From positions 1 through 49,232 of the forward strand of contig LCQF01000006.1 of NCBI GenBank assembly GCA_001004005.1: a stretch of DNA of 49,232 nucleotides. The letters run 5' to 3'. This DNA is from Parcubacteria group bacterium GW2011_GWA2_49_9. GTDB taxonomy: Bacteria; Patescibacteriota; Minisyncoccia; Phycocordibacterales; UBA10002. The position numbers were made by a program, and so were the translations under genes. The first letter of the stretch is position 1, and each line of letters begins with the position of its first letter. Below are positions 1,060 through 47,683 of this stretch, piece after piece. The notes under the pieces are model-generated. The model was not told the origin of the DNA. It did not search any database and saw only the letters and a program-made list of their open reading frames with translations.

Positions 1060-1103
1060 GAGAGCGGGACGGGAGTGTTCGTTCGTACGCTCCATTCGGT
1101 GAA

Positions 1104-1253
1104 GTAACTCTCCACACCTGTCGAAGAATGTCTTAATTCCTCCTTTTCTAAAGGAGGTGCCCGAGTCTTCGAGGGCGGGGGATTTAGAAAATCCCTTCTG
1201 CATAAGAATGCAGTGCTCCCTTTAGGAAAGGGAGAATAAGAGTGGAGAGGTAC
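1104..1253. mobile_element. MITE-like palindromic element, intergenic full-length copy (~150 bp) with terminal inverted repeats
   Basis: Left end 'gtaactctccac' matches the reverse complement of the right end 'gtggagaggtac' at 11/12. The interior has hairpin modules 'cctccttttctaaaggagg', 'ctgcataagaatgcag' and 'ctccctttaggaaagggag'. The module order parallels the element at 34156-34301. Confidence 0.7.
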
Positions 1254-4293: not shown

Positions 4294-5067
4294 GTGAATT
4301 TTATGGCATCGACCGAACGTTTTGGATACGAATGGGACAAGTACGCCTCGATGGACGAGCGCTATGAAGCGCAGTTTCGAAACTGGACCTATCCGCTCGC
4401 CGAAGATGATTTCAAAGGCAAAAAAATCCTTGACGCGGGGTGCGGAATGGGTAGGAATAGCTTCTGGCCTCTTTCGTGGGGAGCACGGGTGGCGGTCGCA
4501 TTCGACTTTGACCGACGCTCGGTGGCTCGCGCTAAAGAAACGCTCGCAACTTTTCCAAACGCACGCGTCGAGTACAAAAGTATCTACGAGCTTTCGTGGA
4601 AAGATGAATTTGATATCGCCTTCAGCATCGGAGTTATTCATCATCTGAAGGAACCGGAACTCGCTCTTCGCAATCTTGTTACGGCTCTCCGATCTGGCGG
4701 AACGCTTCTTGTGTGGGTGTATAGTTATGAAGGAAACGAATGGATAGTGAGTTATGTAAATCCAATTCGGAAACACATAACGTCAAAATTACCCCTTCCC
4801 CTGGTACACTTTCTTTCCTACTTCTGTTCCGTTCCGCTCTTTATACTCGTCAAGCTAATGAGAGGACCATCAAAGTATCTGAAACAACTTTCTACGTTCA
4901 GATTTCGGCATATACACAGCATTGTCTTTGACCAACTTATTCCCGAAATCGCCAATTATTGGTCAAAAACGGAGGTTGAAGCGCTGGGAAAGGGTATAGG
5001 GCTTTCCGGCTTTGACGTTTATGCGCCACCTAATAAACTCGGATGGATACTTTGCGGTAAAAAATAA
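4294..5067 (+). CDS. Class I SAM-dependent methyltransferase
   Basis: Motif I 'ILDAGCGMGRNS', 'IAFSIGVIHHL', 'LRSGGTLLVWVY'. GTG start at 4294 or ATG at 4303, abutting the asnB stop. Confidence 0.85.
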   Translation: MNFMASTERFGYEWDKYASMDERYEAQFRNWTYPLAEDDFKGKKILDAGCGMGRNSFWPLSWGARVAVAFDFDRRSVARAKETLATFPNARVEYKSIYELSWKDEFDIAFSIGVIHHLKEPELALRNLVTALRSGGTLLVWVYSYEGNEWIVSYVNPIRKHITSKLPLPLVHFLSYFCSVPLFILVKLMRGPSKYLKQLSTFRFRHIHSIVFDQLIPEIANYWSKTEVEALGKGIGLSGFDVYAPPNKLGWILCGKK

Positions 5068-5068
5068 C

Positions 5069-5651
5069 ATGAATGAAACATCTTCCAAGGACCGAGTGGA
5101 GAATATACGGGACGCTTTTAAGCGTTGGCCGCGTTTATATTTCTTCATTGCGACCGTCTTCGGTCCGCTTATGTTTTGCGGCTTAAGCGGAAAAGGGTTC
5201 CTCAAAAAGTACGGCAGTGAGGGGGTATGTCTCAATCTCGGTTCCGGTCCGAGAGTTATCGGTGAGGAGGTGGTTAATGTCGATATGTATCCATACAAGG
5301 GTGTATCGGTCATTGCGGATATTACCGCTCTTCCGTTCAAAGACGGAAGCGTGTCGCGAATCGTATGTGATACGGTGCTTGAGCATGTGCATGACCCCAT
5401 ACAAGCAGTGCGTGAGATGCACAGGGTGCTTATGCAGGGATCGGGCTGGTCCGTTTTCCGCCTTGACCGTGTGGCTTTGTTATTTCTTTGCAAGCGCGTT
5501 CTCGTTCGGTAGCAAGAGTCTCTATTGGGTTCTTATCAATATGGCAATGTTTATTTTCTTCCCCATAAAACTTCTTGATATCGTCGGTAATCATTTACCG
5601 CAGGCAACAAATATGGCAGCCGTGCTGTATGTGGTCATTAGGAAGAAGTAA
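5069..5651 (+). pseudogene. Class I SAM-dependent methyltransferase (type 11-like), split over two frames near 5436-5445
   Basis: Frame 1 reads 'LNLGSGPRVIG..NVDMYPY..ADITALPFKDGSVSRIVCDTVLEHVHDP..REMHRVLMQG' and then becomes nonsense. Frame 2 resumes with 'GPFSALTVWLCYFFASAFSFGSKSLYWV..PIKLLD..VVIRKK'. The combined length of ~190 aa seems ~40 aa short for this architecture. Confidence 0.65.
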
Positions 5652-6409: not shown

Positions 6410-8215
6410 ATGTTACCGCGATTTTCTTTAATTCTCACCGGACAGGCAAGAGTCCACGTTGTGGCGCTGGTATGCGCTTTGTGTGTAGGCGTACTGTATG
6501 TAGCCCCGTACGTTTTCTTCAGAGTTTCGGCAGGTGATGCATATCGGAGAATACCGATGATGCAAAGTACGAATGAGGACGAGTACCTGATGCGCATACA
6601 GGAGATTATTGACGGACATCCGTCTCTCGGCTCGCCGGTCTTCTATGAATACAAAAGTGAACCCCCTCTGTCGCCTCCGGTTGGCGAATTTCTGTACGCG
6701 CTTCCGACTCTCATGCTCGGGATATCGCCCATTACGACGCTTGTCGCAAGTAAGTTTTTCCTGCCCGCACTCCTGTTTCTTTTAGTGTATCTTCTTGCGT
6801 GGCGGCTTTCTGGGGCCGAAAACGGTGTCGTAAGCAAGCTCTCCGCTCTTGCGGCGGCATTCTTCGTAACGCTCGGATACGACCTTATCGATTACAGAAC
6901 TGTTTGGAATTTTCTCACAGGTGCAGCTTCTCCCGGAAGTTTTTTGCTCTGGTCAAGGCCGGTGAATCCAATTCTCGGCGCACTTTTCCTGTTTTCTTTT
7001 TTACTTCCTCTCCACGCTCTTGTTGAAGGAACAAAGTGGCGCAAGACTGTCATAGCTCTCGCCGCCGTGTTCCTCGCCTGTATGTTCGGGAGCTATTTTT
7101 TCAGCTGGGGTATTGCGGTTTCAATTCTCGCTATACTAGTGCTCTTTCTTCTTATACGCAAAGAGTATCGAACCGCCGGTACGCTTGCCCTTGTGGTGCC
7201 GGCCGGTATGTTGTGCGCCTTGCCGTATTTCATAGCCATATGGCGCGCGGCGCAAAGTCCCTGGTATGAAACTTCAGTTCTCCGAAGCGGGCTATTTCTG
7301 ACGCACTATCCGCTTTGGAATAAGCTTCTGCTCGTCTCGCTCTTCTTTTTTGCAGTTACAGTCGCGTGTGATTTCTTTCTGAAGAAAAGGAAAAAAATTA
7401 TATTTCGTCTTGAATCGTGGCATTGGTTCTGTTTCTCGTTGCTTCTTGGCGGACTCTGGGTGTATATACAGCAACTATTTACGGGCAGAACAATTTGGCC
7501 GTATCATTTTGTGCAGTATACGATTCCGCTGTCCATAGTGGTCGGAATGACCGTTGTGGAGCGAAGTATCCGGCAGTACAGTCGGTATCTCTACTTCGTA
7601 CTCATATCGATTATCATCCTTTCCTCCGTTACTTTCGGAATATATACACAGGTGAGCGTCTATGCGCAGTTTCGCCCCTATTACGTCGAGTTACAACGTT
7701 ATGGAGCGTTATTTACCTTACTGAACGCACAAGAGAGCGACTGTGTCGTCTTGCAGACAAGTATGGAGGAACATACAGGTCTTGACCATCTGATTCCGGC
7801 CTTTACGCACTGCAATTTGTATGACTCGTCCTCCGTATACTCGCTTCTTCCCGAAGAGCGTATTTTACACAACTATCTGGTGCGCCTGTATTTTAGAGGC
7901 GTTAGTCCGGATACCATAGAGGAGTTTCTTCAAAGTCCCGATTCCGAAGCGCGGGGCTATCTCTCGTCAAACTGGAAAGGAGTGTTCGGGGTTACGGACT
8001 TTCCCGATTTTTCCGACCCACTTTTTGAGAAACGATTACAGGAATTCCCAGAGCAGTATAGAGCGTTTGCGCGAAAAGACTTCGAAACGGAACTTCGGAA
8101 GTATCGCTTGGACTATATTCTCGTTAAGGGCGAGCCGTCAGCAAACGCGCGGAAGTTACTTCAATTAAAGAAAGTGCTGTATGTGGACAAAGATGTGAGC
8201 GTGTATCAATTTTAG
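6410..8215 (+). CDS. Large polytopic membrane protein of unknown function with a C-terminal soluble domain (possible glycan polymerase or lipid-linked-sugar glycosyltransferase)
   Basis: About 12 hydrophobic segments over the first ~430 aa, then a hydrophilic ~170 aa tail. The ATG at 6410 overlaps the upstream stop (6407). I recognise no diagnostic motif. Confidence 0.6.
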   Translation: MLPRFSLILTGQARVHVVALVCALCVGVLYVAPYVFFRVSAGDAYRRIPMMQSTNEDEYLMRIQEIIDGHPSLGSPVFYEYKSEPPLSPPVGEFLYALPTLMLGISPITTLVASKFFLPALLFLLVYLLAWRLSGAENGVVSKLSALAAAFFVTLGYDLIDYRTVWNFLTGAASPGSFLLWSRPVNPILGALFLFSFLLPLHALVEGTKWRKTVIALAAVFLACMFGSYFFSWGIAVSILAILVLFLLIRKEYRTAGTLALVVPAGMLCALPYFIAIWRAAQSPWYETSVLRSGLFLTHYPLWNKLLLVSLFFFAVTVACDFFLKKRKKIIFRLESWHWFCFSLLLGGLWVYIQQLFTGRTIWPYHFVQYTIPLSIVVGMTVVERSIRQYSRYLYFVLISIIILSSVTFGIYTQVSVYAQFRPYYVELQRYGALFTLLNAQESDCVVLQTSMEEHTGLDHLIPAFTHCNLYDSSSVYSLLPEERILHNYLVRLYFRGVSPDTIEEFLQSPDSEARGYLSSNWKGVFGVTDFPDFSDPLFEKRLQEFPEQYRAFARKDFETELRKYRLDYILVKGEPSANARKLLQLKKVLYVDKDVSVYQF

Positions 8216-34115: not shown

Positions 34116-34155
34116 GATGTGCGATTCACCACAAAGAGCATACTCGTTCTCGGTA

Positions 34156-34301
34156 GTAACTCCTCACGCTCTTAACATCCCCCTTATTAAAGGGGGTGGA
34201 CGCATTCTTATGCGCCGGGGGATGTTACCGAACACCCCTCCTGCCGAAGACGGCAGTGCTCCCCTTGCTTAGGGGAGATACAGACGAGTGTGAGGGGTTA
34301 C
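34156..34301. mobile_element. MITE-like palindromic element, intergenic full-length copy (~146 bp) with 16-bp terminal inverted repeats
   Basis: 'gtaactcctcacgctc' (34156-34171) matches the reverse complement of 'gagtgtgaggggttac' (34286-34301) at 14/16. Internal hairpins are 'cccccttattaaaggggg', 'gcgcattcttatgcgc', 'ctgccgaagacggcag' and 'ctccccttgcttaggggag'. Confidence 0.75.
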
Positions 34302-34380
34302 TCTCGATAGAGTGGACACTTTGGCTACTTTGTACTATTTCATTAAACAATAGCGCGGCTCATAACGAGCACACTGTAAA

Positions 34381-43525: not shown

Positions 43526-44839
43526 ATGCATATTCAGGAACATATTTCTCTTAAAGAACTGACGACGATGAAAATCGGGGGAGACGCCCGCTATTTTTGT
43601 TCTGCCTCGACTGCCGAAGCTTTGGCGGAGGCGGTTTTGTTTGCTCGCGAAAAGAATGTGCCCGTTATTGTGCTTGGTGGAGGTTCCAACACGCTTGTCG
43701 CGAGTGGTGATATTAACGCGCTGGTTCTGAAAATTGAAATCAAGGGGGTTGAGTGGGAATCTCCCTTAGGAAAGTGGAATAGTCGTAGACGAGGAGCACT
43801 CCGACGTGGCGTCGGGGGAGGGTTGTTACAACCCCCGGCGCATCGGAATGCGTCCACCCCCTTTAGTAAGGGGGATTCCGTTCCGGTCGTTGTCGGCGCC
43901 GGTGAGAGCTGGGACGGCTTTGTCGCGCAAGCTGTTGAGAAAGGATTGTGGGGTATTGAAAATCTTTCCGGTATTCCCGGCACCGTAGGCGCCGCCCCTA
44001 TCCAAAATATCGGTGCGTATGGAACGGAAGTCAAAGATACGATTCTGTGGGTAGAGGTGTTTGATATCAAGGCGGGGAAGCTCCGGCGGCTTACAAACGC
44101 CGAATGCCGGTTCGCGTACCGCGACAGTATGTTTAAGCATCAGGTGGAAGGACCGTTCATCGTCTGCCGTGTGGCTTTTCTCCTCCGGAAAGATGGCGTT
44201 CCTAATTTGGAATATAAAGATTTACAAAAATATTTCGGGAATCTTTCCTCCCCTCCTTTCCAAGGTGAGAAGCGAATACTTGGAGCTTCGCAAGACCTTG
44301 AGCGTCCGTCTTCGGACGCGAAAGGTGTACAGCTTCGGTACGAAGGGGATAAGAGGGGTGGTAGTTTTCCTTCTCTCCAGCAAATCCGCAACGCTGTTAT
44401 TGAAATCCGTTCCGGGAAATTCCCCGACCTGCGGGAATTTGGTACCGCCGGTTCATTCTTCAAAAATCCGATTATCTCAAAGAAACAGTTTGATGAATTG
44501 AAAGAGAGATACCCGAATCTTCCAGGATTTCCTCTTAGCCTCTCCCCCTCTTTAGAGGGGGAGATTGAGAGGTGGTGCACCCCACCCACCCTCCCCTCTA
44601 AAGAGGGGAGGAGGGAAGAAAAGGTGAAAATCCCGCTTGCGTGGGTACTCGACAATATTTGCAATCTTAAAGGTTTCAAAAAAGGAAATGTCGCCTTGTT
44701 TGAGAAACAGCCGATTGTGCTCGTGCACAGCGGAGAGGCGACCTCGGAAGAAATTGAATTGTTCGCGAAAGAAATTGCGGACATCGTAAAAGTAAAAACC
44801 GGAATTGAAATTGAGTGGGAGGTGCAAAGAATATTTTAA
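43526..44839 (+). CDS. murB: UDP-N-acetylenolpyruvoylglucosamine reductase, enlarged by three in-frame repeat-derived insertions
   Basis: 'LTTMKIGGDARYF', 'VLGGGSNTLV', 'VVVGAGESWD', 'GIENLSGIPGTVGAAPIQNIGAYG.EV', 'C.FAYRDS.FK', 'GSFFKNP', 'IPLAWVLD..G.KG...G...L.EKQPIVLV'. It is 437 aa versus ~300 aa typical. Confidence 0.9.
   Translation: MHIQEHISLKELTTMKIGGDARYFCSASTAEALAEAVLFAREKNVPVIVLGGGSNTLVASGDINALVLKIEIKGVEWESPLGKWNSRRRGALRRGVGGGLLQPPAHRNASTPFSKGDSVPVVVGAGESWDGFVAQAVEKGLWGIENLSGIPGTVGAAPIQNIGAYGTEVKDTILWVEVFDIKAGKLRRLTNAECRFAYRDSMFKHQVEGPFIVCRVAFLLRKDGVPNLEYKDLQKYFGNLSSPPFQGEKRILGASQDLERPSSDAKGVQLRYEGDKRGGSFPSLQQIRNAVIEIRSGKFPDLREFGTAGSFFKNPIISKKQFDELKERYPNLPGFPLSLSPSLEGEIERWCTPPTLPSKEGRREEKVKIPLAWVLDNICNLKGFKKGNVALFEKQPIVLVHSGEATSEEIELFAKEIADIVKVKTGIEIEWEVQRIF
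43760..43879. repeat. Palindromic-element copy inside murB (reverse orientation relative to 34156-34301), in-frame
   Basis: 43832-43874 matches the reverse complement of 34179-34221 at 40/43. The flanking modules 'tctcccttaggaaag' and 'gcactccgacg..cgtcggggg' are co-linear with the reverse complement of 34222-34275. Confidence 0.8.
44247..44361. repeat. Second hairpin-rich insertion inside murB, in-frame (boundaries approximate)
   Basis: Bounded by the inverted 'cctcccctc' / 'gaggggtgg'. It contains 'gcgtccg-tctt-cggacgc' and encodes 'LSSPPFQGEKRILGASQDLERPSSDAKGVQLRYEGDKRGGSFP', which has no counterpart in the MurB fold as I know it. Confidence 0.55.
44540..44612. repeat. Third insertion inside murB: two G/C-homopolymer hairpins, in-frame (boundaries approximate)
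   Basis: 'ctccccctctttagagggggag' and 'cctcccctctaaagaggggagg', encoding 'LSPSLEGEIERWCTPPTLPSKEGRRE'. Confidence 0.6.
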
Positions 44840-44995: not shown

Positions 44996-45082
44996 ATGGC
45001 AAAGAAGAAACGAAAAGCGACGAAGAAGCGCAAGACGGCGAAGAAAGGCAAGAAGCGCAAGACCGCAAAGCGACGCCGATAA
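44996..45082 (+). CDS. 28-aa lysine/arginine-rich micro-protein (hypothetical)
   Basis: An ATG..TAA ORF 'MAKKKRKATKKRKTAKKGKKRKTAKRRR', followed 3 nt later by a strong terminator hairpin. It was not in the ORF track because it is under 60 aa. Confidence 0.4.
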   Translation: MAKKKRKATKKRKTAKKGKKRKTAKRRR

Positions 45083-45085
45083 ATC

Positions 45086-45117: not shown

Positions 45118-47071
45118 GTATCCGTGATTGTCACTCGAAAATAAGCAGAGCACGGGTGAAGGGTTAAGGATTAAAGATTAAGGATTTCTATGTTAGTATT
45201 GCCCCATGTTTGATGGATTAAAAAAGCTATTCGGGGACGACACGGTGGCCAAGCTAAAGCCTCTTTTGGGGAACGTAGAGAAAATAAACCGCTTGGAAGA
45301 AGGCCTCAAAGCGCTGCCTAAAGAGGCGCTTAAAGAAAAGACCGCTGAACTGAAAGCCCGATTACAGAAGGGTGAGACGTTGGATGATATCCTACCCGAA
45401 GCGTTCGCGCTCGTGCGCGAATCGTCGCGGCGCACGCTTGGCGAACGGCACTTTGACGTACAACTTCTCGGCGGACAAGTCTTACATAACCGCGGCATCG
45501 CGGAGATGCGTACCGGAGAAGGGAAGACACTTGTCGCGACGCTCCCTTCGTATCTTAACGGGGGTTGTTAATCATGATTCTTCTTTTTTGTATGACCCAC
45601 TGCATAGTTCTAAGTTGGAAGTTGAAAGTTCAGAGTCAGAAAACCTAAAACTTAAAACTGATAACTTAAAACTTGACGAGACAAGGGACACACTTGGCTC
45701 GTTCAAGGTCGTGCATGAATTCCTGCGGCCGTGCACCCGGCGTGAAGCGTACGCCGCGGATATCACGTACGGCACCAACAACGAATTCGGGTTTGATTAC
45801 CTTCGCGACAATCTTGAGTATGACCCTGCGCGGCTCCGTCAGCGCGATTTCAACTATGCGATTGTGGACGAGATTGACTCCATCCTTATTGACGAGGCGC
45901 GAACCCCGCTCATTATTTCCGCCCCCACGGGTGATTCGGAAGATTTATACGCGCGGTTCGCGCAGATTGCGGGAGGCCTTGCGGCGGATACGGATTTTAC
46001 GGTAGACGAAAAACAAAAAGCGATTCAGCTCACGCCCGCGGGTATTGAGAAAGCGGAAAAGGCGCTCGGAATCGGCAATATCTACACCGAGAAAGGCATC
46101 AAGTACGTACACCATCTTGAAACCGCCGTACGGGCGAAAGCGCTCTTCCAACTTGATAAAGAGTACGTGGTGAAGAACGGCGAAATCATTATCGTGGACG
46201 AATTTACCGGCCGTATGATGCCGGGGAGGCGTTGGAGTGAAGGGTTGCATCAGGCGATTGAAGCGAAAGAAGGCGTGAAGGTGCAGAAAGAATCCCGCAC
46301 GTTTGCGTCCATCACGTTCCAGAATTATTTCAGAATGTACAAAAAGCTCGCCGGGATGACGGGTACCGCGAAAACCAGCTCCGAAGAGTTTTACAAAGTG
46401 TATGGACTTGACGTCGTTTCTATCCCGACTAACAAGCCGATTGCCCGTGCTGACCGGAACGACCAGATTTTTCAGACGGAGACGGGGAAGTACAAGGCCA
46501 TCGCGAAGAAGGTCGCGGAACTGAACAAAAAAGGCCAGCCCGTTCTCATCGGCACGGTCTCCATTGAGAAAAACGAAGTGCTTTCCGAGTACCTGCGTAC
46601 GGTCGGCGTCCCTCACGAACTTTTGAATGCCAAAAATCACGAACGGGAAGGAGAAATTATCGCCCAAGCGGGACGGCGTGGAGCGGTGACCGTCGCGACT
46701 AATATGGCTGGCCACGGCGCATTGATAACCAGCTTCGCGGACGCAGCGGACGACAGGGAGACCCCGGCGAAACGCAATTCTTCGTTTCAATGGAAGACAC
46801 ATTGATGCGGGTCTTTGCCGCGGATACTATCAAGAGTGTTATGGGGAAATTCGGTATTCCCGAAGACGAGCCGATTGAAAACAGGATGATTACCCGCTCG
46901 CTTGAATCGGCACAGACGAAAATTGAAGGCTTCAACTTTGATTCGCGCAAGCACGTACTGGAATACGACAACGTGCTCAATCACCAGCGCACCGTTATTT
47001 ATGAACGCCGGCGCAAGATGTTGCTCGGCGGCCCCGAAGCGGTGGATGAGTATCTCACTATGCTCTCGGCA

Positions 47072-47126
47072 GGGGAATCCCCCTTAGAAAAGGGGGTGCC
47101 TCCGTCTTCGGAGGCGGGGGTTGTGA
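47072..47126. repeat. Palindromic-element core inside the secA C-terminal region, in-frame
   Basis: 'cccccttagaaaagggggtg-cctccgtcttcggagg-cgggggttgtga' has the same hairpin1-TG-hairpin2-CGGGGG layout as 1139-1181 and 34179-34221. It encodes 'ESPLEKGVPPSSEAGVV'. Confidence 0.7.
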
Positions 47127-47493
47127 ATTTCGGCAAGCTCGTTGAGCAGAAAAAGCAGCAGCTCGGTGCGGAGTTCTACCCGGCCATTTCGCGCCTTATC
47201 CTCCAGACCATTGACCTCTTCTGGGTGGAGCATCTGGAAGTGATGGATTATTTGCGCGGTTCCGTAAATTTGCGCGCGTATGGCCAGCGCGACCCGCTCG
47301 TGGAATATAAGCGGGAAGGACTCAAACTTTTCAAGGATATGGAAGAGAATATCGTGAATCAGGTACTGCACGTCTTTCCACACGTTGGCGGTGCTCCCAT
47401 ACAGGAACAGGTCAAATTACAGGAGGTACACGAGCAGGCCCAGCTTATCGGCTCGGGCGATGAAGAGTCCGATGCGCAGCATCACGGCAATAT

Positions 47494-47524
47494 CCCCCTT
47501 AACAAAGGGGGTGGCCTGGGGGGG
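47494..47524. repeat. Truncated palindromic-element core inside the secA C-terminal linker, in-frame
   Basis: 'cccccttaacaaagggggtggcctggggggg', encoding 'IPLNKGGGLGGL'. Confidence 0.6.
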
Positions 47525-47683
47525 TTGTCGTCTTCACGTTCGGAACCGAAAAATCCCGACGGTTCGCGCATCGGTCGCAACGACCCCTGCTTCTGCGGAA
47601 GCGGCAAGAAGTATAAGAAGTGCCATGGAGTGTAGAGTCAGCGTTTTTCTTGCCCTCTGTAGAAAGAGGCAAAAACCCTTGTT

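What the first reader, a model, noticed from the sequence alone, without database searches (positions are those of the whole stretch)
47072..47530. Two element cores embedded in-frame in the SecA C-terminal region
47079-47120 ('cccccttagaaaagggggTGcctccgtcttcggaggCggggg') and 47494-47524 ('cccccttaacaaagggggTGgcctggggggg') reproduce the hairpin1-TG-hairpin2-CGGGGG architecture of the intergenic elements at 1139-1181 and 34179-34221. Both are translated within the intact 46790-47635 frame as 'ESPLEKGVPPSSEAGVV' and 'IPLNKGGGLGGL'. They lie in SecA regions that are length-variable: after the 'NVLNHQR..IYERRR' helix and in the linker before the zinc-finger tail 'CFCGSGKKYKKCHG'. This makes a second essential gene colonised by the same family.
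Basis: partly seen in the sequence, partly recalled or inferred. Interest (0 to 1): 0.7.

Follow-up and report, generated by a model that had tools for sequence, protein, structure and literature searches.

The report
Mobile hairpin repeats inside SecA gene
Two short copies of a hairpin-forming DNA repeat sit in-frame inside the SecA gene of a candidate-phyla-radiation bacterium, where they add floppy loops to the protein. The same repeat family occurs in many bacterial phyla and flanks a small nuclease gene (DUF559) that may be what moves it.

Summary
47078-47125 and 47492-47528 are two copies of a ~48-nt unit: hairpin 1, TG, a variable hairpin 2, then CGGGGGTTGT. A covariance model scores them E=6e-20 and 1e-10. 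Three more copies lie at 1136, 34176 (both intergenic) and 43828 (in MurB). Both SecA copies are read in-frame.

Codon alignments show they are insertions:
- A 66%-identical SecA lacks both.
- An 84%-identical sister has both.
- Another relative has two tandem units at site 1 and none at site 2.
- A fourth lineage carries an unrelated palindromic repeat at the same two sites.

AlphaFold places both inserts in low-confidence loops: the helical-wing loop and the linker before the zinc finger.

The phenomenon resembles Rickettsia palindromic elements, here in Patescibacteria. Other CPR genomes carry the unit in-frame in Obg, a Mur ligase, GMP synthase and others.

Two results were unexpected. The unit occurs in many phyla, and it flanks DUF559 (Vsr-like nuclease) genes in 6 of 6 loci chosen by protein homology alone. 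A DUF559 unit is also present or absent right after secA between sister genomes. Mobilisation by DUF559 is inferred, not shown.

Caveat: secA in this contig is broken upstream by two ~105-nt deletions.

The parts
47078..47125 (+). Unit A, SecA site 1. It is 16 codons long: hairpin 1 (CCCCCTTAGAAAAGGGGG), TG, hairpin 2 (CCTCCGTCTTCGGAGG), then CGGGGGTTGT. It is read as SPLEKGVPPSSEAGVV (SecA C-terminal ORF residues 97-112).
   Evidence: Covariance model 67.4 bits, E=6e-20. Folds as two hairpins, -16.7 kcal/mol, z=-4.8. Codon alignment: absent in L120, present in L001, doubled in L121. Coil with pLDDT below 50.
47492..47528 (+). Unit A, SecA site 2. Hairpin 1 (CCCCCTTAACAAAGGGGG), TG, hairpin 2 lost (only GCCTG left), then GGGGGGTTGT. 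It is read in the other open frame as IPLNKGGGLGGL (residues 235-246).
   Evidence: Covariance model 38.8 bits, E=1.4e-10. The sister L001 has the full unit with hairpin 2 at the same codon; L121 and L120 lack it. Lies in the disordered linker, residues 222-250, pLDDT below 50.
46790..47635 (+). Host ORF: the SecA C-terminal part (SecA_SW plus the SEC-C zinc finger), 281 aa.
   Evidence: ORF list. Precomputed Pfam PF07516 and PF02810, and more than 7000 SecA homologues.
45206..46805 (+). The rest of secA, in two further frames (45206-45571 and 45372-46805). It is interrupted at about 45560 and about 46715 by deletions of about 104 and 105 nt relative to the sister genome.
   Evidence: SecA_DEAD profile positions 115-148 are missing.
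43750..43880 (-). Full A+B doublet in reverse orientation, in-frame inside MurB (read as ...STPFSKGD...).
   Evidence: Covariance model 52.6 bits, E=4e-15 for 43828-43877(-). Sequence. Fold z=-4.6.
44528..44615 (+). Second palindromic insert in MurB, of the CCCCTC variant (PLSLSPSLEGEIERWCTPPTLPSKEGRREEK). The sister has a different short sequence here.
   Evidence: Weak covariance-model hits to hairpin 1 at 44544-44561 and 44593-44608. Comparison with L001. Fold z=-4.1.
1136..1237 (+). Intergenic full element: unit A (1136-1185) plus unit B, an inverted A-like unit (1188-1237). It forms five consecutive hairpins.
   Evidence: Covariance-model hits: + strand E=7e-14, - strand E=0.002. Alignment with the copy at 34176. 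Fold z=-6.0.
34176..34280 (+). Intergenic full element: unit A (34176-34225) plus unit B (34232-34280).
   Evidence: Covariance-model hits: + strand E=8e-15, - strand E=0.1. Fold -33.3 kcal/mol, z=-7.2.

Best explanation
The two SecA segments are single units of a family of short, GC-rich, hairpin-forming mobile repeats. The full form is an inverted doublet of about 105 nt.

Shown:
- The units were copied into secA in an ancestor of this lineage and its sisters. One sits in the loop of the reduced helical-wing domain, the other in the disordered linker before the zinc finger.
- They persist because they add a whole number of codons at permissive, unstructured places.
- The unit is nearly always stop-free in two of its three forward frames, where it reads Ser/Ile-Pro-Leu-x-Lys-Gly.
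- Since insertion the copies have changed by whole-unit gain or loss (one versus two tandem units at site 1) and by internal deletion (hairpin 2 lost at site 2 in this genome).
- Hairpin 1 has stayed unusually constant, even at synonymous positions.
- The family is not specific to this genome. The same unit occurs in many bacterial phyla.
- It brackets a small DUF559 (Vsr-like PD-(D/E)XK) nuclease gene, usually as A-gene-A'.

Inferred, not shown:
- The short doublets and singlets are non-autonomous derivatives of that DUF559 unit.
- They are spread in trans by its nuclease, through nicking or cleavage followed by repair-copying. This would be analogous to REPIN/RAYT or to a free-standing homing endonuclease.
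- Gene-dense CPR genomes have little intergenic room, so surviving copies often end up in-frame in genes.
For: Repeat family and statistics.

Insertion status:
- The protein alignment shows both peptides absent from most SecA homologues.
- The codon alignment shows a 48-nt unit in the same frame in the window and in L001, two tandem units in L121, and none in L120.
- An unrelated palindromic family (AAGGTCTGACCTT) sits at the same two SecA sites in L122.

Permissive sites: AlphaFold coil with pLDDT below 50 exactly over residues 96-111 and 222-250, flanked by helices at pLDDT 85-89.

Frames: forward frames 0 and 2 are open in 35/42 and 40/42 copies, and frame 1 is closed in 39/42. Shuffled sequence has a stop in 38% of frames. 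SecA uses exactly frames 0 and 2.

Structure:
- Hairpin 2 varies in sequence (51 distinct among 61) but stays a hairpin. All 6 pairs show double-sided changes; covariation 0.255 against 0.072 +/- 0.011, 0/500 shuffles.
- Synonymous codon identity is 0.47-0.58 in flanking SecA against 11/12, 6/7 and 6/7 in hairpin 1.

Generality in CPR: 16/24 hits lie inside long stop-free frames against 12/102 in other phyla (Fisher p=1.3e-7). Hosts include Obg, a Mur ligase, GMP synthase, a GT4 glycosyltransferase and an aminotransferase.

Distribution: 106 of 122 exact hairpin-1 hits in species-representative genomes also carry the unqueried GGGGG[AT]T tail within 45 nt.

DUF559 link:
- DUF559 was the top recurrent ORF family near hits.
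- In 6 of 6 independent loci chosen by DUF559 protein homology alone, covariance-model hits flank the gene within 250 nt or less. Only one weak hairpin-1 hit lies elsewhere, about 350 nt upstream in L115.
- CPR examples are L013 and L001. In L001 an A-DUF559-B unit of about 515 nt lies right after secA and is absent from the window.
- DUF559 proteins are 86% identical between a Nitrospinae and a Brocadia genome, with the same flank variant.
- The nearest characterised relative in PDB is the homing endonuclease I-Bth0305I, 3R3P.
Against: - No transposition or homing event was observed, and no target-site duplication is evident at the coding copies (sequences).
- No DUF559 gene lies in this 49-kb window, and the rest of the genome could not be examined.
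- The arrangement of units around DUF559 is not uniform. A-gene-A' is commonest, A'-gene-A occurs in L078, L086 and L118, and direct repeats occur in L102. DUF559 could therefore instead be a gene that targets or rides on pre-existing repeats.
- The constancy of hairpin 1 could reflect gene conversion among copies rather than function.
- secA in this contig is disrupted upstream. 'Tolerated in an essential gene' therefore rests partly on the relatives. Of these, only L121 gives a clean C-terminal ORF, and L001 is a 1.9x-coverage contig with frameshifts.
Confidence: 0.75

Rival explanations
1. The hairpins are functional RNA or DNA structures kept by selection, rather than selfish mobile DNA. 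Examples would be transcription terminators or attenuators, mRNA stabilisers, ribosome-pausing signals or a protein-binding site. The SecA copies would then be there for a purpose.
For: - Hairpin 2 shows compensatory covariation.
- Hairpin 1 is conserved at synonymous sites.
- The two intergenic copies lie just after the stop codons of upstream genes.
- Fold z-scores are strong.
Against: - Copies occur in both orientations relative to the host gene (10 sense, 6 antisense among the CPR coding copies).
- They occur in unrelated genes.
- They occur as tandem duplicates (L121, L033, L105).
- They are present or absent between close relatives.
- An unrelated repeat family occupies the same SecA sites elsewhere, which points to permissive sites rather than a required function.
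- No Rfam family matches.
Confidence: 0.1
2. The repeats are ordinary REP/REPIN elements mobilised by a RAYT (Y1 tyrosine transposase), or MITEs of a conventional insertion sequence encoded elsewhere in the genome. DUF559 is an unrelated neighbour.
For: - The units are short GC-rich imperfect palindromes.
- They form inverted doublets.
- They are multi-copy within genomes.
- Only 49 kb of this genome, and 8 kb or less around each other hit, were seen.
Against: - Clustering 1918 ORFs from 111 loci found no recurrent transposase. The other recurrent families are housekeeping (ABC ATPase, GMP synthase, GT4, D-Ala ligase).
- DUF559 is flanked by the units in 6 of 6 loci sampled independently of the motif.
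- The unit ends carry no GTAG or CGTC tag (alignment).
- REP families are normally lineage-specific. This unit keeps the same 18-nt hairpin 1 and tail across phyla.
Confidence: 0.1
3. The SecA copies are assembly artefacts: repeat-induced chimeric joins in a metagenome assembly.
For: - The contig's secA has two unexplained ~105-nt deletions.
- Scaffolds break at these repeats elsewhere (the N-gap in L013).
Against: - The same units sit at the same codons in independent assemblies from other samples and sources: L001 (ENA) and L121 (JGI).
- The units preserve the frame.
- The flanking SecA sequence continues colinearly on both sides.
Confidence: 0.03
4. The peptides are native, lineage-specific SecA loops whose similarity to the intergenic repeats is coincidental.
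For: Both sites are naturally length-variable in SecA.
Against: - Nucleotide-level covariance-model E-values are 6e-20 and 1e-10.
- The two sites use different reading frames of the same nucleotide unit.
- The hairpin 2 of site 1 is identical to that of an unrelated locus in another Patescibacteria genome (L097).
Confidence: 0.02

Closest known systems
Rickettsia palindromic elements (RPE; Ogata et al. 2000, from my own knowledge; mentioned in PMC1779305 and in the MITE review PMC10969869, both found)
   Same: - Palindromic repeats of roughly 100-150 bp, in many copies in a small genome.
- Inserted in-frame into protein-coding genes, including essential ones, at surface or loop positions.
- They add peptide segments without destroying the protein.
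- No transposase is encoded within the short elements.
   Different: - Different host (Patescibacteria, with relatives of the unit in many phyla), and a GC-rich sequence built on C5/G5 runs.
- The SecA copies are 37-48-nt single units rather than whole elements.
- The family is linked here to a DUF559 nuclease gene. To my knowledge no such partner is known for RPEs.
- Sequence similarity to the RPE families was not tested.
REP / REPIN elements with RAYT transposases (PMC3116915, PMC3337134, PMC3733652; abstracts seen)
   Same: - Short GC-rich imperfect palindromes.
- Organised as inverted doublets, also found as singlets and tandem arrays.
- A small single-copy gene is bracketed by the repeats (the 'REPtron' layout), with non-autonomous copies elsewhere.
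   Different: - The bracketed gene is a PD-(D/E)XK Vsr-like nuclease (DUF559), not a Y1 tyrosine transposase.
- There is no GTAG or CGTC tag.
- Many copies are intragenic rather than extragenic.
- The same unit sequence is shared across phyla.
Intragenic MITEs and small mobile sequences (Coxiella QMITEs, PMC5896051; enterobacterial RU/ERIC, PMC2759123, PMC2229807; abstracts seen)
   Same: Non-autonomous small repeats found both between and within genes, contributing peptide segments to host proteins.
   Different: - Those are lineage-restricted.
- They have terminal inverted repeats and, for MITEs generally, target-site duplications and an IS parent (my own knowledge).
- Here no target-site duplication or IS parent was found.
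Vsr-like (EDxHD) homing endonuclease I-Bth0305I (PDB 3R3P; PMC3239194, abstract seen) and PDB 3HRL, an uncharacterised DUF559 protein
   Same: - The DUF559 profile matches 3HRL (E=6e-30) and 3R3P (E=3e-5).
- It is a small stand-alone nuclease associated with mobile DNA, and shows presence/absence polymorphism at a fixed site (L001 versus the window).
   Different: - I-Bth0305I sits in a group I intron in a phage gene.
- The DUF559 genes here are free-standing, bracketed by hairpin repeats, and their activity is unknown.

Membership tests
Rickettsia palindromic elements (RPE) | Belongs by sequence to one of the RPE families of Rickettsia genomes | not tested
   No RPE consensus was available in the tools. 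The host is clearly not Rickettsia: the best SecA matches are Patescibacteria/Paceibacterota.
Rickettsia palindromic elements (RPE) | Palindromic, about 100-150 bp, multi-copy | tested here: met
   Full A+B elements of 102-131 nt fold into 5 hairpins with z=-4.6 to -7.2. There are five A copies in 49 kb.
Rickettsia palindromic elements (RPE) | In-frame insertion into ORFs at permissive (exposed) positions | tested here: met
   Codon alignment, AlphaFold coil with pLDDT below 50, and other CPR host genes.
REP/REPIN-RAYT | Short GC-rich imperfect palindromes, often as inverted doublets | tested here: met
REP/REPIN-RAYT | Associated RAYT (Y1 transposase) gene flanked by the repeats | tested here: inconclusive
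   No recurrent transposase was found among 1918 ORFs near 122 hits; DUF559 is found instead. Whole genomes were not searched, and a singleton RAYT would be missed.
REP/REPIN-RAYT | Conserved GTAG or CGTC tag at one end (Di Nocera et al., PMC3733652 abstract) | tested here: not met
   Unit ends are (A/T)TCCCCC and GGGGG(T/A)T(G/T)T in 42 aligned copies.
REP/REPIN-RAYT | Extragenic location | tested here: not met
   3 of 5 strong copies in the window, and 16/24 CPR hits, lie inside ORFs.
MITE (IS-derived) | Terminal inverted repeats | tested here: met
   Unit B is an inverted A-like unit. The covariance model for A hits the minus strand at 1188-1237 and 34232-34280.
MITE (IS-derived) | Target-site duplication | tested here: not met
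   No consistent direct repeat flanks the 15 CPR copies inspected.
MITE (IS-derived) | Parent insertion sequence with the same ends encoding a transposase | tested here: not met
   The only gene found between the same ends is DUF559, which is not a known transposase family.
Free-standing homing endonuclease gene (Vsr-like / EDxHD) | Nuclease of the Vsr-like fold with conserved catalytic residues | tested here: met
   PF04480, E=6e-33. Invariant D53, E64, D66, H70 in 7 sequences from 5 or more phyla. PDB 3R3P, E=3e-5.
Free-standing homing endonuclease gene (Vsr-like / EDxHD) | Presence/absence at a conserved site between close relatives | tested here: met
   One case: L001 3410-3924 against window 47653-47682.
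Free-standing homing endonuclease gene (Vsr-like / EDxHD) | Cleaves the empty allele or the repeat | not testable with these tools
   This requires biochemistry.

The most novel reading that the evidence does not exclude
The hairpin unit (CCCCC-loop-GGGGG, TG, an optional variable hairpin, GGGGG(T/A)T) together with the DUF559 nuclease gene it brackets would be a previously undescribed, pan-bacterial class of small selfish element. It would be a nuclease-driven counterpart of the REPIN/RAYT system.

Under this reading:
- Its non-autonomous units spread within genomes and between phyla.
- In gene-dense CPR genomes they are fixed in-frame in essential genes such as secA, murB and obg.
- This would give the very large DUF559 family a function, and would name a candidate mobilising enzyme for RPE-like in-frame repeats.
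Probability: 0.35. Interest if true: 0.8.

Novelty: new variant of a known kind. Interest (0 to 1): 0.62.

Why it matters
In-frame colonisation of essential genes by palindromic repeats is a textbook oddity known from Rickettsia. Finding it in Patescibacteria (SecA, MurB, Obg, a Mur ligase, GMP synthase) shows that the oddity is not confined to Rickettsia. It looks like a more general outcome when small selfish repeats meet a gene-dense, reduced genome.

It also has practical consequences. Such units inflate and distort CPR protein alignments. They create apparent lineage-specific 'insertions'. They also break assemblies.

The larger potential pay-off is the link to DUF559. A conserved hairpin unit brackets this nuclease gene across many phyla. 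That gives a concrete, testable candidate for the enzyme that moves REP/RPE-like repeats lacking a transposase, and a first functional hypothesis for a huge domain-of-unknown-function family.

Tried and rejected
- Rfam, gathering thresholds on the window: no hits.
- Rfam, E-value mode on 8 repeat-bearing loci. This gave an unrelated c-di-GMP riboswitch, spurious miRNA-precursor and anti-hemB matches to the long palindromes, and one other chance sub-threshold hit. No known RNA family matches.
- tRNA/tmRNA scan: none.
- An element remnant at the first secA deletion junction. 45551-45568 (TCTTAACGGGGGTTGT) scores only E=0.21. The sister sequence shows that GGGGTTGTT there is native coding for Gly-Val-Val. 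Rejected.
- Metagenome-wide sampling of DUF559 loci (search for related loci). I replaced it with a protein search plus six contig look-ups.
- Literature searches for CPR repeats or MITEs, and for DUF559 linked to repeats or mobility. Nothing describes either. The library is incomplete, so this is weak evidence of novelty.
- A conventional transposase near the repeats. The other recurrent ORF clusters are housekeeping genes.
- Strict co-variation between DUF559 clades and flank variants. This is only partial: the CCCCTC/GGGGTGTGT pair clusters at 86% identity, most TTGT loci group together, and the two ATTT loci do not.
Full report
**Observation**

They lie in ORF 46790-47635, whose translation contains ESPLEKGVPPSSEAGVV and IPLNKGGGLGGL. 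The window is 49.6% G+C.

The hairpin-1 motif CCCCCTTNNNAAAGGGGG with up to 2 mismatches occurs 11 times counted by strand, at six sites, against 0.05 expected from shuffles. I built a covariance model (R1) of the unit from 42 copies, 38 of them from other genomes. Run over the whole window with filters off, it gives five strong hits:

| Position | Strand | Bits | E-value |
|---|---|---|---|
| 47076-47124 | + | 67.4 | 6e-20 |
| 43828-43877 | - | 52.6 | 4e-15 |
| 34176-34225 | + | 51.7 | 8e-15 |
| 1136-1185 | + | 48.8 | 7e-14 |
| 47491-47528 | + | 38.8 | 1.4e-10 |

Weaker minus-strand hits follow at 1188-1237 and 34232-34280.

**Anatomy**

The two intergenic copies align over about 150 nt. As single strands they fold into five consecutive hairpins, with z=-6.0 and -7.2.

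They consist of two parts:
- Unit A is hairpin 1, then TG, then hairpin 2, then CGGGGG(T/A)TGT.
- Unit B is an inverted, A-like unit, which is why the A model hits the opposite strand there.

The full element is therefore an imperfect palindromic doublet.

The SecA copies are single A units. Site 1 is complete. Site 2 has lost hairpin 2. MurB (43526-44839) carries a complete doublet in reverse orientation at about 43750-43880. It also carries a second palindromic insert of a CCCCTC variant at 44528-44615.

**Are the SecA segments insertions?**

Yes. In a 15-sequence alignment, most SecA homologues at 50-66% identity have nothing at either place. I fetched DNA for four relatives and threaded it onto the protein alignment.

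| Sequence | Relation | Site 1 | Site 2 |
|---|---|---|---|
| Window | - | One 16-codon unit (TCC CCC TTA nnn AAG GGG ... GTN) | Unit with hairpin 2 deleted |
| L001 | 84%-identical sister | One unit, same frame | Complete unit with hairpin 2 |
| L121 | 67% identical | Two tandem units | None |
| L120 | 66% identical | None | None |

In L121, one unit has the window's hairpin 2 and the other has the sister's.

Removing the 48 nt from the window leaves ...SAGE|NFGKLVEQK. This lines up without a gap with the uninserted ...AGNDEGLVKAVEDK of other homologues.

Site 2 is read in a different frame of the same nucleotide unit (ATC CCC CTT AAC AAA GGG GGT).

In a further lineage (L122, 65% identical) an unrelated palindromic repeat, AAGGTCTGACCTT...AAGGTCAGACCTT, occupies the same two sites plus a third. 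These are permissive landing places.

AlphaFold2 on the C-terminal ORF gave a modest model (mean pLDDT 65). Its low-confidence segments within the fold are 48-50, 96-111 and 222-250. The last two are long coils that contain the two inserts (residues 97-112 and 235-246). They lie between helices at pLDDT 85-89. From established SecA anatomy (my own knowledge), these are the loop of the reduced helical-wing domain and the flexible C-terminal linker before the zinc-binding tail.

**Why the units are tolerated**

Across 42 copies the unit is open in forward frames 0 and 2 in 35/42 and 40/42 cases. It is closed in frame 1 in 39/42. Shuffled sequence has a stop in 38% of frames. Because of the C5 and G5 runs, both open frames read x-Pro-Leu-x-Lys-Gly. 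SecA uses exactly these two frames. The reverse strand is less open, but it is used in MurB (STPFSKGD).

**Nucleotide-level constraint**

Hairpin 2 differs in sequence between copies (51 distinct among 61) but remains a hairpin. All six pairs show double-sided changes. The covariation score is 0.255 against 0.072 +/- 0.011, reached by 0 of 500 shuffles, and slid controls score below 0.07.

Between the window, L001 and L121, codons for identical amino acids are identical in 47-58% of flanking SecA positions. In hairpin 1 the figures are 11/12, 6/7 and 6/7. Either the hairpin is constrained as nucleic acid, or the copies are homogenised by conversion.

**Beyond this genome**

My own estimate of chance matches for 18 specified bases in 596 Gb on both strands is about 17.

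More telling is what follows the query. 106 of 122 matches also carry GGGGG(T/A)T within 45 nt downstream, which was not part of the query. The spacer length is bimodal, at 0-3 nt or 8-35 nt. The long spacers fold much better than their shuffles (-4.9 against -1.7 kcal/mol, p=1e-9).

Hosts include:
- Saccharibacteria, Nomurabacteria, Gracilibacteria and Paceibacterota
- Gemmatimonadales, Ca. Brocadia and other Planctomycetota
- Nitrospinae and Nitrospirota
- Acidobacteria
- Bacteroidota and Balneolaceae
- gammaproteobacterial MAGs, Elusimicrobiota and Ignavibacteria

Several copies per genome are seen even with this exact pattern. Inverted doublets and tandem arrays are common.

In CPR genomes 16 of 24 hits lie inside long stop-free frames, against 12 of 102 elsewhere (Fisher p=1.3e-7). 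Most of the 12 are short, probably spurious frames. The CPR host proteins include Obg, a Mur ligase, GMP synthase, a GT4 glycosyltransferase, an aminotransferase, a zinc alcohol dehydrogenase and a Wzy/TPR protein. In-frame colonisation of core genes is thus a general feature of this repeat in CPR. This is the Rickettsia RPE phenomenon in another reduced-genome lineage.

**The DUF559 link**

I clustered the 1918 ORFs of the 111 loci. The most recurrent family (7 loci, 5 or more phyla) is a protein of about 120 aa that is DUF559/PF04480, E=6e-33. In those loci the gene is bracketed within 5-75 nt by the units. An example is ACAACCCCC-h2'-CA-h1' [gene] h1-TG-h2-CGGGGGTTGT in L078 and L086. The other recurrent clusters are housekeeping genes.

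To remove the ascertainment bias, I searched the protein database with a DUF559 profile and fetched six independent loci chosen only by protein and contig length. In all six, model R1 finds units flanking the gene within 250 nt or less. The usual layout is a plus-strand copy upstream and a minus-strand copy downstream (A-gene-A'). Only one weak hairpin-1 hit lies further out, about 350 nt upstream in L115.

Two CPR examples exist:
- In L013, a complete A+B doublet precedes the gene and an A' unit overlaps its end.
- In the sister contig L001, a segment of about 515 nt directly after the secA stop is A-like unit, DUF559 ORF, B-like unit. It is absent from the window, which has 30 nt there.

DUF559 proteins from a Nitrospinae and a Brocadia genome are 86% identical and share the same flank variant. 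This indicates transfer of the whole unit between phyla.

The profile matches PDB 3HRL (an uncharacterised DUF559 protein, E=6e-30) and 3R3P, the homing endonuclease I-Bth0305I (E=3e-5). The PD-(D/E)XK survey groups Vsr, DUF559 and that homing endonuclease in one clade (PMC3424549).

I found no paper linking DUF559 to repeats or mobility, and none describing such repeats in CPR. The library is incomplete.

**Mechanism, and what is shown versus inferred**

Shown:
- The SecA segments are copies of a dispersed palindromic repeat.
- They are insertions relative to homologues.
- They preserve the frame and sit in disordered loops.
- They are inherited with later unit gain or loss and internal deletion.
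- The repeat family is cross-phylum and brackets DUF559 genes.
- A DUF559 unit is polymorphic between sister genomes.

Inferred:
- The short units are non-autonomous derivatives of the A-DUF559-A' unit.
- They are spread by its nuclease through breakage and repair-copying.

Against a simple story:
- No target-site duplication is visible.
- The layout around DUF559 varies.
- No DUF559 gene lies within this 49-kb window.

**Caveat on secA**

In this contig secA is split into three frames: 45206-45571, 45372-46805 and 46790-47635. The sister has an extra 105 nt after LPSYLN, encoding [20 protein letters not shown].... It has about 108 nt after TNMAG, encoding RGVDIKLGG...GTERHEAR. The window lacks all but 1 and 3 nt of these. 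Pfam confirms that SecA_DEAD positions 115-148 are missing.

Short direct repeats lie at both junctions (CT(T)AACG, and ...CGGCG). Apart from these two deletions, no other stop or frameshift interrupts the three secA ORFs. I cannot tell whether the deletions are assembly or amplification artefacts or very recent lesions. Either way, the in-frame status of the units is independently supported by L121 and L001.

**Verdict**

The finding itself is a new instance, in Patescibacteria, of a known kind of event: RPE-like in-frame palindromic repeats. The cross-phylum unit and its consistent association with DUF559 nuclease genes make it a new variant of that kind, with a testable mobilisation hypothesis.

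Noticed in passing
window 45553-45561 and 46715-46719: secA is interrupted by two deletions of about 104 and 105 nt relative to the sister contig. They remove conserved motor-domain segments and shift the frame. Short direct repeats lie at both junctions. This could be an assembly or amplification artefact, or a very recent lesion.
   Followed up: partly
L001 3410-3924 versus window 47653-47682: The sister genome has a segment of about 515 nt directly after the secA stop: A-like unit, DUF559 nuclease ORF (frameshifted in a 1.9x-coverage contig), B-like unit. The window has only a 30-nt spacer there.
   Followed up: yes
L122 (SecA of a 65%-identical relative), codons about 87-118, 212-224 and 250-270: A different palindromic repeat family (AAGGTCTGACCTT ... 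AAGGTCAGACCTT, read as GSTLDREKGQTL / RSDLGSGKRSDL) sits in-frame at the same two SecA sites and at a third.
   Followed up: partly
window 43765-43790 (MurB copy); L013 about 4850-4890 and 6905-6930: A 16-18-nt motif (TGGAATAGTCGTAGAC / AGTCGTAGACT) is nested inside hairpin loops of the element in several genomes. It looks like a secondary insertion or a subfamily marker.
   Followed up: no
window 1100-1122 with 1243-1262, and 34146-34164 with 34284-34304: The two intergenic elements share additional outer inverted repeats (AGTAACTC(T/C)(C/T)CAC ... GTG(G/T)(A/G)G(A/G)GGT(T)ACT) beyond the A+B core. These are absent from the coding copies.
   Followed up: no
window 44255-44365 (MurB): A third MurB stretch (SSPPFQGEKRILGASQDLERPSSDAKGVQLRYEGDKRGG) contains a GCGTCCGTCTTCGGACGC hairpin resembling hairpin 2. 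It may be a degenerate element copy. It was not compared with MurB homologues.
   Followed up: no
window 44998-45083: A small ORF upstream of secA encodes an extremely Lys/Arg-rich peptide (MAKKKRKATKKRKTAKKGKKRKTAKRRR), built from a 21-27-nt tandem repeat (family D9).
   Followed up: no
window 5012-5509: This ORF has only the C-terminal half of a methyltransferase domain (profile positions 47-90 of 95) and overlaps its neighbours. It may be another truncated or frameshifted gene on this contig.
   Followed up: no
L053 (Nitrospinae) and L116 (Ca. Brocadia): DUF559 proteins are 86% identical across two phyla and share the same CCCCTC/GGGGTGTGT flank variant, which suggests recent horizontal transfer of the whole unit.
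   Followed up: partly
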